Source of the DNA: an uncultured Chloroflexota bacterium
GTDB taxonomy: Bacteria > Chloroflexota > Dehalococcoidia > UBA2979
Length of the DNA: 62,711 nucleotides
Assembly (NCBI GenBank): GCA_913051185.1
Contig: CAJXBM010000004.1
Coordinates: 1-62,711, forward strand
Direction of reading: 5' to 3'
The notes under the pieces are model-generated. The model was given only the letters and a program-made list of their open reading frames with translations. It had not been told where the DNA came from and did not search any database. Both the position numbers and the translations under genes were made by a program. Below, in pieces: positions 61,065-62,112 of the stretch. Position 1 is the first letter of the stretch, and each line of letters opens with the position of its first letter.

Positions 61065-61685
61065 TTAATCATCTTGAGATTCACTAAAAGAAGTGCCAAT
61101 TAGAGACTCAGTTATTAACCGCTGATGAGCATTTTTATCAAGCGACTGACCAATCACTCGTTCAGCTGCATTCACTGTCAAATCAGCAAATTCAGCTCTA
61201 AGAGAATTAATGGCCTGCTGCCGTTCTGTTTCAATTTCATTTCTTGCGCGCGTCACTATCTGCTCAGCATCAGCTCGAGCCTGGGTCTCAAGTTCTTCAC
61301 TCAATCGCGCAGCAGTCTCCTGAGCCCGAGTGATTAACTGTCTGCCCTCAGCGCGGGCTTCCTCCAACGCAGCTCGAGCCTCTTCTTGGCTCTTTTCTGC
61401 AGATTCAGATGCTGCTTGAGATGCATTAAGTCCTGCCTCTATCTTCTCTCGACGCTCGTCCACAATCTTCATAATGGGACCCCAGGCCAAAAAACGAAGC
61501 ACCACTAAAAGCACTCCAAAGTTGACTAGCTGAGCTATGAGCCCCGGAACATTGATTCCTAAGGCTCCAATGCCGCCACTCTCAGCAAAAACGCCAAGAG
61601 GAGTGACAGCAAAAAAGATGCCTAACACAGCGGCGATGACAACTCGCCGACGCCACGATAAAAAATCAAATTTGATTTCCGTCAT
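61065..61685 (-). CDS. atpF: F0F1 ATP synthase subunit b with signal-peptide-like N-terminal leader
   Basis: LGIN.PGLIAQLVNF..L.FLAW.P..DERR.KI then coiled coil; AAGGAG upstream of ATG 61685. Confidence 0.92.
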   Translation of the reverse strand: MTEIKFDFLSWRRRVVIAAVLGIFFAVTPLGVFAESGGIGALGINVPGLIAQLVNFGVLLVVLRFLAWGPIMKIVDERREKIEAGLNASQAASESAEKSQEEARAALEEARAEGRQLITRAQETAARLSEELETQARADAEQIVTRARNEIETERQQAINSLRAEFADLTVNAAERVIGQSLDKNAHQRLITESLIGTSFSESQDD

Positions 61686-61753
61686 TCTCCGTGGCTCCTT
61701 CCCATACAAATCAGTACCACCAAATAATCAAATATGCATTCTCTGCAGCCCGA

Positions 61754-61771
61754 CTATTGGCTCACCAATAG
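61754..61771. promoter_or_regulatory. Stem-loop just downstream of atpE
   Basis: CTATTGG-CTCA-CCAATAG: perfect 7-bp stem, no U-tract. Confidence 0.4.
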
Positions 61772-61779
61772 ATTTATTC

Positions 61780-62112
61780 CTAAAACACAAATCCAATAAG
61801 AATCGCGACAACAAGCGCATAAATTGCGACAGCTTCAGCGAAGGCAATTGCGAGAATCATGTTCGTCTGAATTACTCCTGCAGCCTCAGGGTTTCGACCG
61901 AGAGCTTCCATAGCCTTGGACCCGAGCATACCAATTCCGATTGCCGGACCTAGTCCTCCAACACCCATAGCTATTCCAGCCGCAAGAAACTTCATGGACG
62001 CCTCAGTCGAAGCATTATCTGCTTCGCCCTCAGCTGCTGCCACCGCTGTGGCAATCAACCACATCGCTGCTGAAAGCATAGTTACGTAAAACGCTCGGCT
62101 TCTAATCTTCAT
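61780..62112 (-). CDS. atpE: F0F1 ATP synthase subunit c with signal-peptide-like N-terminal leader
   Basis: GxGxGxG helix, GRNPEA loop, FAEAVAIY carboxylate; AGAAGGAG before ATG 62112. Confidence 0.95.

What the first reader, a model, noticed from the sequence alone, without database searches (positions are those of the whole stretch)
61065..62112. ATP synthase subunits c and b both begin with cleavable-signal-like leaders
Seen: c starts [27 protein letters not shown]|EGE and b starts MTEIKFDFLSWRRRVVIAAVLGIFFAVTPLGVFA|ESGG. Each has a basic n-region, hydrophobic h-region and AxA-type site, with an AAGGAG RBS at the upstream ATG. Established: typical bacterial c and b are inserted without cleavable leaders; N-terminally extended c subunits are known in some lineages. 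Inference: SPase I processing or an extra TM helix sets F0 topology here. Having it on both subunits is unusual. Caveat: c has an internal ATG (MKFLAAG) with a weak GAGG.
Basis: partly seen in the sequence, partly recalled or inferred. Interest (0 to 1): 0.62.

Follow-up and report, generated by a model that had tools for sequence, protein, structure and literature searches.

The report
Signal-peptide leaders on ATP synthase c and b
In one family of marine Dehalococcoidia, both membrane subunits c and b of the ATP synthase are made with conserved export-type leader peptides that are most likely cut off; each kind of leader is already known elsewhere, so only the pairing is unusual.

Summary
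atpE (61780-62112, minus strand, 110 aa) and atpF (61065-61685, minus strand, 206 aa) each encode about 30-40 residues ahead of the Pfam domain. Each has a basic n-region, a hydrophobic h-region and an AxA site.

The upstream ATGs are the real starts.
- Each has AAGGAG 6 or 9 nt upstream.
- The c leader differs from a 94%-identical relative mostly at third codon positions (21 synonymous, 6 non-synonymous codons).
- The internal Met40 of c is not conserved.

About 115 relatives of each protein keep the pattern but not the sequence: Ala at -1 in 100%, Ala at -3 in 98% (c) and 88% (b), and a Gly (c, -5) or Pro (b, -6) helix breaker. The h-regions vary.

The genome encodes an intact signal peptidase I and YidC. 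The best reading (about 0.78) is Sec-type leaders cleaved after A27 (c) and A34 (b). Cleavage itself is not shown.

Both leaders occur together in all 17 sampled genomes of the window's own family plus 4 near relatives. They occur together in none of 129 other loci, although a leader on c alone or b alone recurs in Chloroflexota.

Precedents exist (Aquifex c, Mycoplasma b), so this is a new member of a known kind with modest interest.

The parts
61780..62112 (-). atpE, F-type ATP synthase subunit c precursor, 110 aa
   Evidence: ORF. PF00137 scores 66.4 bits on residues 43-106. TIGR01260 scores 56 bits against a cut-off of 43.95.
62032..62112 (-). c leader, residues 1-27 ([27 protein letters not shown]). 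n-region K2/R4/R6, h-region about 15 aa, c-region TAVAAA, predicted cut A27|E28.
   Evidence: Column statistics over 116 homologs give -1 Ala 100%, -3 Ala 98%, -5 Gly 87% and -6 Thr 81%. Against locus L085 the leader has 21 synonymous and 6 non-synonymous codon differences. AlphaFold2 gives a helix at 2-27 followed by coil at 28-33.
61993..62031 (-). Acidic N-tail of the predicted mature c ([13 protein letters not shown]). D32 and N33 are invariant or nearly so, and T36 is 95% conserved. It includes the internal ATG (Met40, 61993-61995).
   Evidence: Met40 is Met in only 67% of relatives.
62119..62124 (-). Shine-Dalgarno AAGGAG, 6 nt before the atpE ATG
   Evidence: A GGAGG is conserved at the same place in L085-L087.
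61065..61685 (-). atpF, F-type ATP synthase subunit b precursor, 206 aa
   Evidence: ORF. PF00430 scores 110 bits. TIGR01144 scores 114.5 bits against a cut-off of 65.5.
61584..61685 (-). b leader, residues 1-34 (MTEIKFDFLSWRRRVVIAAVLGIFFAVTPLGVFA). n-region ends in RRR, h-region 13 aa, Pro at -6, predicted cut A34|E35.
   Evidence: Column statistics over 112 homologs give -1 Ala 100%, -3 Ala 88% or Val 8%, -6 Pro 100% and +2 Glu 90%. AlphaFold2 gives a helix at 11-31 and pLDDT below 50 at 34-39.
61695..61700 (-). Shine-Dalgarno AAGGAG, 9 nt before the atpF ATG
   Evidence: The same GGAAGGAGCC is present in L085-L087.
62233..62711 (-). atpB (subunit a), C-terminal 158 aa only. The contig ends inside the gene.
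   Evidence: PF00119 scores 86.6 bits. The window is the whole of contig C4.
60507..61046 (-). atpH (subunit delta), next gene of the operon
   Evidence: PF00213 scores 139.8 bits.

Best explanation
Both Fo subunits whose N-terminus must end up outside the cell (c and b) are synthesised as precursors with Sec-type, signal-peptidase-I-cleavable signal peptides.

Proposed mechanism (inferred):
- The leader inserts with its N-terminus inside and forms a helical hairpin with the first real membrane helix. This places the short acidic N-tail on the outer face.
- Signal peptidase I then cuts after A27 in c (AAA|EGE) and after A34 in b (VFA|ESG).
- This releases a mature c of 83 aa (about 8.23 kDa) and a mature b of 172 aa (about 18.72 kDa), both with the canonical N-out topology.

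The mature proteins would be only about 6-10 residues longer at the N-terminus than the leaderless c and b of other Dehalococcoidia.

Shown here: the leaders are translated, they are under purifying selection, they carry every sequence hallmark of this signal type, and the peptidase gene is present. Inferred: the cleavage itself and the use of the SRP/Sec(-YidC) pathway.
For: 1. The upstream starts are used.
- AAGGAG lies at 6 nt (c) and 9 nt (b) from the ATG.
- The c leader compared with the 94%-identical UBA2979 MAG locus L085 has 21 synonymous and 6 non-synonymous codon differences. By codon position the differences are 2, 5 and 25.
- Met40 of c is Met in only 67% of relatives.

2. The sequence signature fits.
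- In 116 c and 112 b homologs, -1 is Ala in 100%.
- -3 is Ala in 98% (c), and Ala in 88% or Val in 8% (b).
- A helix breaker is fixed: Gly at -5 in 87% of c, Pro at -6 in 100% of b.
- Arg is conserved in the n-region.
- The h-region columns have 2.0-2.9 bits of entropy. That is conservation of pattern, not of sequence.

3. Topology is consistent. Leaderless Dehalococcoidia b proteins start M-E-A-L-G-I-N-L-P-G-L, exactly where the predicted mature b begins (...GGIGALGINVPGL). Leaderless c proteins start [12 protein letters not shown].

4. The genome encodes a signal peptidase I with the SMxP, KR and GDN..DSR boxes, and a YidC.

5. AlphaFold2 models place a separate helix that ends at the predicted sites. 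Confidence is lowest there: c residues 21-40 have mean pLDDT 67, and b residues 34-39 are below 50.

6. No solved c or b chain in the PDB aligns to the leader parts.

7. There is precedent. Zhang et al. 2013, FEBS J 280:3425 (doi 10.1111/febs.12336) is cited in the reference list of PMC7542862. Its content, a cleaved N-terminal signal peptide on Aquifex aeolicus subunit c, is from my own knowledge.
Against: - No proteomic or N-terminal data exist for this uncultured organism, so cleavage is inferred from sequence only.
- No dedicated predictor (SignalP, DeepTMHMM) was available.
- The uncharged stretches (21 aa in c, 20 aa in b) are long enough to span a membrane as signal anchors.
- My crude rule set passed c but not b, because the real membrane helix of b follows only about 11 residues after the site.
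- The substrate-binding proteins of this genome use Tat-lipoprotein signals. They therefore gave no in-genome examples of signal peptidase I sites to compare with.
- The b N-tail is only about 6 residues longer than in leaderless relatives. The idea that a leader is needed to export a long acidic tail is therefore weak for b.
Confidence: 0.78

Rival explanations
1. The leaders are not cleaved. They stay as an extra N-terminal transmembrane helix (a signal anchor), giving a three-helix c and a two-helix b.
For: The uncharged stretches are 20-21 residues long, enough to span a bilayer. AlphaFold2 models them as helices with pLDDT of about 75-87. Subunit a of these organisms also has an extra N-terminal hydrophobic segment with no obvious AxA site.
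Against: - A membrane helix does not explain invariant Ala at -1, near-invariant Ala at -3 and a fixed Gly/Pro helix breaker 5-6 residues upstream, next to a freely varying hydrophobic core.
- Inference from known c-ring geometry (my own knowledge): ten or more extra helices cannot fit inside the ring lumen. On the outside they would block the a/c interface.
- The predicted mature N-termini match those of leaderless relatives.
Confidence: 0.12
2. The leaders are twin-arginine (Tat) signals, like those of the substrate-binding lipoproteins of this genome.
For: Relatives of c keep I-A-R-R-x-L (Arg 88% and 93%). The Ala/Gly-rich h-region is only moderately hydrophobic: the best 8-residue window is 2.38, against 2.09 for the Tat lipoproteins of this genome and 3-3.9 for many other leaders. 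The window's b has RRR.
Against: - The window's own c and its genus-level relatives have R-S-R, not RR.
- Most b relatives have R-x-R, with twin Arg in only about a third.
- There is no S/T-RRxFLK context.
- c and b carry no cofactor and have no need to fold before export (established knowledge).
Confidence: 0.05
3. The extensions are annotation artefacts. Translation really starts at Met40 of c and downstream in b, and the upstream sequence is untranslated.
For: The internal c ATG has a weak GAGG 5 nt upstream. From Met40 the product would be a canonical 71-aa c.
Against: - Divergence in the leader codons is biased to the third position.
- The leader frame is open and conserved in all 21 family members.
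- Met40 is replaced by Ala, Ser, Phe, Leu and others in a third of relatives.
- b has no in-frame start between the leader and the membrane helix in the window.
Confidence: 0.03

Closest known systems
Aquifex aeolicus F1Fo subunit c with a cleaved N-terminal signal peptide (Zhang, Marcia, Langer, Peng, Michel 2013, FEBS J 280:3425)
   Same: A bacterial F-type c subunit made as a precursor of about 100-110 aa. It has a basic and hydrophobic N-terminal leader ending in small residues, followed by an acidic mature N-terminus. The citation was found. The content is from my own knowledge.
   Different: This is a different phylum (Chloroflexota). Cleavage and pathway are untested here. Here the b subunit of the same operon also carries such a leader.
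Mycoplasma pneumoniae F0F1 subunit b (MPN602), a diacylated lipoprotein
   Same: A b subunit that carries an N-terminal export signal removed by a signal peptidase (PMC4814563).
   Different: That one is a lipobox, signal peptidase II type with Cys at +1. The window's b has AxA and no Cys. Lipobox-type b leaders do occur in other Dehalococcoidia (L038, L101).
N-terminally extended c subunit families in NCBIfam (NF005521/PRK07159, 101 positions; NF006295/PRK08482, 105 positions)
   Same: These curated models of c subunits of about 100 aa align to the window's c from residues 19-22 onwards, that is into the leader.
   Different: Scores (55 and 42 bits) are far below their equivalog cut-offs (122 and 135). 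The window's c is not a member of those lineage-specific families.
Anaerolineae subunit b with a signal peptide and a long acidic N-tail (loci L115, L125, L129, L138, L141, L154, L157, L159, L160, L162, L164)
   Same: The same phylum and the same kind of leader on b (for example ...AAGIAFA|QEATP), seen and classified.
   Different: There the leader precedes a 30-60 residue Glu/Ala-rich tail, and c has no leader. In the window's family the tail is short and c has a leader too.
Organellar presequences on Fo subunits (for example chloroplast CFo subunit I/b)
   Same: An N-out Fo stator subunit is made with a short N-terminal extension that is removed (my own knowledge). The chloroplast b chain in the PDB aligns to window b residues 38-194 from its own residue 16.
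   Different: The chloroplast extension is much shorter and is not a classical AxA signal peptide.

Membership tests
F-type ATP synthase subunit c (PF00137 / TIGR01260) | Profile match above the curated cut-off | tested here: met
   PF00137 scores 66.4 bits against a cut-off of 24. TIGR01260 scores 56 bits against 43.95.
F-type ATP synthase subunit c (PF00137 / TIGR01260) | Gly-rich helix 1, polar R-N-P loop and an ion-binding carboxylate in helix 2 | tested here: met
   [20 protein letters not shown] and AFAE93AVAIY are present. G52, P56, R73, N74, P75 and E93 are invariant in 49 sequences.
F-type ATP synthase subunit b (PF00430 / TIGR01144) | Profile match above the curated cut-off, with one N-terminal membrane helix followed by a long helix | tested here: met
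   PF00430 scores 110 bits against a cut-off of 28. TIGR01144 scores 114.5 bits against 65.5. AlphaFold2 gives a single helix at 46-197.
Sec-type signal peptide cleaved by signal peptidase I | Positively charged n-region | tested here: met
   c has K2, R4 and R6, and relatives have RR in 88% and 93%. b has R12-R14, and relatives have Arg in 87-91%.
Sec-type signal peptide cleaved by signal peptidase I | Uncharged hydrophobic h-region that varies in sequence | tested here: met
   The h-region is about 15 residues in c and 13 in b. Column entropy is 2.0-2.9 bits, against 0-0.9 bits in the c-region.
Sec-type signal peptide cleaved by signal peptidase I | Small neutral residues at -1 and -3, with a helix breaker at -4 to -6 | tested here: met
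   For c: -1 Ala 100%, -3 Ala 98%, -5 Gly 87%. For b: -1 Ala 100%, -3 Ala 88% or Val 8%, -6 Pro 100%.
Sec-type signal peptide cleaved by signal peptidase I | The segment after the site is extracytoplasmic in the mature protein | tested here: met
   The N-termini of canonical c and b are on the outer face (established knowledge). The predicted mature N-termini align with the Met1 region of leaderless relatives.
Sec-type signal peptide cleaved by signal peptidase I | Signal peptidase I encoded in the genome | tested here: met
   TIGR02227 scores 119.7 bits at G000:C2:47664-48167. The Ser and Lys boxes are present.
Sec-type signal peptide cleaved by signal peptidase I | Actual removal of the leader from the mature protein | not testable with these tools
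   This needs mass spectrometry or N-terminal sequencing. No signal peptide predictor was available either.
Lipoprotein (signal peptidase II) signal, as in Mycoplasma subunit b | Lipobox with Cys at +1 | tested here: not met
   There is no Cys in the c or b leaders or at +1. The substrate-binding proteins of this genome do have ...LIGC| lipoboxes.
Twin-arginine (Tat) signal | Invariant RR in an S/T-R-R-x-F-L-K context | tested here: not met
   The window's c has R-S-R. Most b relatives have R-x-R.

The most novel reading that the evidence does not exclude
A whole family of marine Dehalococcoidia (closest named relative: MAG UBA2979) has switched Fo biogenesis to a presequence route. Both N-out subunits c and b are exported through SRP/Sec and trimmed by signal peptidase I, instead of inserting without a leader through YidC as in E. 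coli.

The trimmed c then carries a conserved acidic cap (Q/E-E-A-A-D-N-x-x-T-E; D32/N33 are invariant or nearly so). Multiplied around the ring, this cap would form a negatively charged crown on the outer face. The crown could influence proton access or ring assembly.
Probability: 0.2. Interest if true: 0.5.

Novelty: new member of a known kind. Interest (0 to 1): 0.3.

Why it matters
How the c-ring and the b stalk enter the membrane is textbook knowledge only for E. coli: c through YidC alone, b through Sec/YidC, neither with a leader.

A lineage in which both carry classical cleavable leaders adds a second, natural case besides Aquifex. It could be used to ask what decides whether an N-out Fo subunit needs a presequence.

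It also matters for annotation. Gene callers and domain models could easily trim these genes to the internal Met. Predicted masses of the c-ring and b dimer would be wrong by 2.9 and 3.9 kDa per chain if the leader is ignored.

The practical and conceptual gain is modest, because each kind of leader is already documented elsewhere.

Tried and rejected
- **Literature:** seven full-text searches. The Aquifex paper is not held. Only its citation could be confirmed. No paper on Chloroflexota Fo leaders was found.
- **In-genome control:** I looked for signal peptidase I sites in substrate-binding proteins (PF00496, PF13458). Most carry twin-arginine (Tat) lipoprotein signals, so they were no use as AxA controls.
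- **Rule-based signal scan:**
  - It flags about 5% of ORFs.
  - It passes c but misses b.
  - It also misses several family members that are obvious by eye.
  - I therefore used it only as a background rate and checked the family by eye.
- **AlphaFold2 models:** consistent with detachable leaders but cannot show cleavage.
- **RNA-seq runs:** not searched. The genes sit inside a polycistronic operon, so transcript coverage would not distinguish the start codons.
- **N-glycosylation sequon in the conserved D-N-x-(S/F)-T of the c tail:** rejected, because the +2 position is Phe in half of the relatives. A helix N-cap is more likely, since AlphaFold2 starts the helix at residue 34.
- **Tree of the 70-aa mature c domain:** not built. 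It is too short to resolve whether the c leaders of families f1, f6, f57 and f76 share one origin.

Full report
**What is there**

The end of the window carries an F-type ATP synthase operon on the minus strand.

| Gene | Coordinates | Note |
|---|---|---|
| atpB (subunit a) | 62233 to the contig end | truncated |
| atpE (c) | 61780-62112 | 110 aa |
| atpF (b) | 61065-61685 | 206 aa |
| atpH | 60507-61046 | |
| atpA | 58950-60479 | |
| atpG | 58025-58912 | |

The window is the whole of contig C4 of a 1.82-Mb, 83%-complete MAG with 45.6% G+C.

The Pfam c domain covers only residues 43-106. The Pfam b domain starts near residue 49. Each protein therefore has roughly 40 extra N-terminal residues.

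**Are the upstream ATGs the real starts?**

Four lines of evidence say yes.
- The c ATG at 62112 is the first start codon after the in-frame stop, and AAGGAG lies 6 nt upstream. The b ATG at 61685 has AAGGAG 9 nt upstream. That motif lies inside the alternative TTG-initiated extension listed by the ORF finder, which argues against the TTG.
- The internal c ATG (Met40, 61995) has only GAGG at 5 nt.
- Compared with the 94%-identical locus L085 (MAG 'Dehalococcoidia bacterium UBA2979'), the 39 leader and tail codons of c show 21 synonymous and 6 non-synonymous differences. By codon position the differences are 2, 5 and 25. That is the signature of translated sequence under purifying selection.
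- Met40 is Met in only 67% of 116 homologs. Ala, Ser, Phe and others replace it.

**Conservation of the leaders**

The 120 best database hits for c are 108-146 aa long. The 120 best hits for b are mostly 200-216 aa, and several are named 'Dehalococcoidia bacterium'. With few exceptions they carry the same architecture. The b list also holds a few N-terminally truncated entries and one unrelated chimera (P0231), which I left out of the statistics.

Column statistics on 116 c and 112 b sequences:

| Feature | c | b |
|---|---|---|
| -1 | Ala 100% | Ala 100% |
| -3 | Ala 98% | Ala 88%, Val 8% |
| Helix breaker | Gly at -5, 87% | Pro at -6, 100% |
| Other near the site | Thr at -6, 81%; Gln at +1, 93% | Glu at +2, 90% |
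| n-region Arg | two Arg at 88% and 93% | 87-91% |
| h-region entropy | 2.0-2.6 bits | 2.1-2.9 bits |

A variable hydrophobic core flanked by a fixed basic n-region and a fixed small-x-small c-region with a helix breaker is the classical definition of a Sec-type signal peptide cut by signal peptidase I. The window's own versions are AAA|EGE (c, after A27) and VFA|ESG (b, after A34).

**Consistency with topology and machinery**

Canonical c and b both have their N-terminus on the outer face (established knowledge). A leader that inserts N-in and is cut outside yields exactly that.

Leaderless b proteins of other Dehalococcoidia begin M-E-A-L-G-I-N-L-P-G-L. Leaderless c proteins begin [12 protein letters not shown]. 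The predicted mature proteins here begin only 6-10 residues earlier.

The genome encodes one signal peptidase I with the SMxP, KR and GDN..DSR boxes, and one YidC.

AlphaFold2 models built from family alignments give these elements:
- For c: a helix at 2-27, a coil at 28-33, then the hairpin at 34-73 and 75-109.
- For b: a helix at 11-31, a segment with pLDDT below 50 at 34-39, then one long helix at 46-197.

The models fit detachable leaders but cannot prove cleavage. No solved c or b chain in the PDB aligns to the leader parts.

**How unusual is the pairing?**

I sampled 301 genomes of the class with the c protein. I then read the c and b N-termini in 70 of them and in 80 named loci from genome contigs. 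Family labels such as f1 are the tool's anonymous codes.

| Group | Loci | c leader | b leader |
|---|---|---|---|
| Window's family f1 (12 genera) | 17 | all | all |
| Near relatives L085-L088 | 4 | all | all |
| Other Dehalococcoidia (44 families) | 53 | 4 (f6: L034, L037; f76: L058; f57: L061) | 1 lipobox type (f68: L038) |
| Other genome-contig loci | 76 | 1 (Candidatus Peribacteria, L100) | 11 Chloroflexota/Anaerolineae-type loci, plus a lipobox b in a Dehalococcoidia MAG (L101) |

No locus outside the family has both leaders. The Anaerolineae-type loci have a signal-peptide-like leader on b followed by a 30-60 residue Glu/Ala-rich tail, and a leaderless c.

Each leader is therefore a recurrent trait in Chloroflexota. 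The combination is a family-level character. Earlier notes of this scan also list similar single-subunit leaders in other genomes. I treat those as leads only.

**Rivals**

- **Retained extra helix.** The length of 20-21 uncharged residues allows it. It does not explain the invariant -1/-3 Ala and the Gly/Pro helix breaker. For c it is hard to fit sterically around or inside a ring (inference from known ring structures).
- **Tat signal.** The RR in c relatives and the Tat-lipoprotein signals of this genome's binding proteins suggest it. However, the window's c has R-S-R and most b relatives have R-x-R.
- **Mis-called start.** The codon-position test and the non-conserved Met40 exclude it for practical purposes.

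**Comparison with what is known**

- A cleaved signal peptide on a bacterial c subunit was described for Aquifex aeolicus (Zhang et al. 2013). The citation was confirmed. The content is from my own knowledge.
- Subunit b of Mycoplasma pneumoniae is a lipoprotein, made with an export signal that is removed (PMC4814563).
- NCBIfam holds curated families of c subunits of about 100 aa whose models align into the window's leader.

The finding is therefore a new member of a known kind. It is real, conserved and probably functional, but not a new principle. What is new is the documented co-occurrence on c and b throughout one marine Dehalococcoidia family.

**Verdict**

- The best explanation is Sec-type leaders cleaved by signal peptidase I on both subunits (confidence 0.78).
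- Interest is 0.3.

Noticed in passing
window 62233-62300 (minus strand); L085 1260-2390: Subunit a ends in a His/Asp/Glu-rich tail (HGDHDDHDEEHGSQP...). In the complete relative it is 376 aa. That copy has an insert of about 100 aa containing DLAHDHDGHGD between the conserved helices. This is much longer than the roughly 230-270 aa I recall as typical for bacterial a subunits.
   Followed up: partly
L085 1260-1400 and most Chloroflexota loci (L004-L072, L115-L164): Subunit a carries an extra N-terminal hydrophobic segment (M-K/R, about 20 hydrophobic residues, then G-x-S/P-P-A-I-I-V-A-P-E) ahead of the usual first helix. It occurs in both leader-bearing and leaderless lineages. It is absent in the Patescibacteria loci.
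   Followed up: partly
L085 1033-1263: A 76-aa two-helix membrane protein lies directly upstream of atpB in the near relative. I did not scan it against families; it looks like an AtpZ/AtpI-type protein. The corresponding region lies beyond the end of the window's contig.
   Followed up: no
G000 contigs C1, C3, C10, C18, C20, C33 (for example C1:31487-33082): Seven of the 11 SBP_bac_5 substrate-binding proteins of this genome have twin-arginine plus lipobox signals (SRRxxLRGAALGGAGLAGAALIGC|), followed by long Ser/Ala/Thr-rich linkers.
   Followed up: partly
L021, L022, L032, L039, L044, L056, L072 (Dehalococcoidia families f58, f60, f50, f26): A third class of c subunit has an N-terminal extension of about 30 aa that starts M-E/D and has a short hydrophobic stretch. 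It has no basic n-region and no AxA site (for example METLLAIIAPVLEGARLLAQEEAEATKF...). Its role is unknown.
   Followed up: no
L038 and L101 (Dehalococcoidia, family f68 and MAG BS2bin.16): Subunit b has a lipoprotein-type leader (…LLLSSC|DAMGELG, …LFISSC|DAAGELG). This resembles the Mycoplasma b lipoprotein.
   Followed up: no
G000 contigs C38, C69, C75 and others: Several short contigs encode leaders in a different style (Bacteroidota-like, Lys-rich, low Ala). This fits the 3% contamination estimate for the MAG.
   Followed up: no
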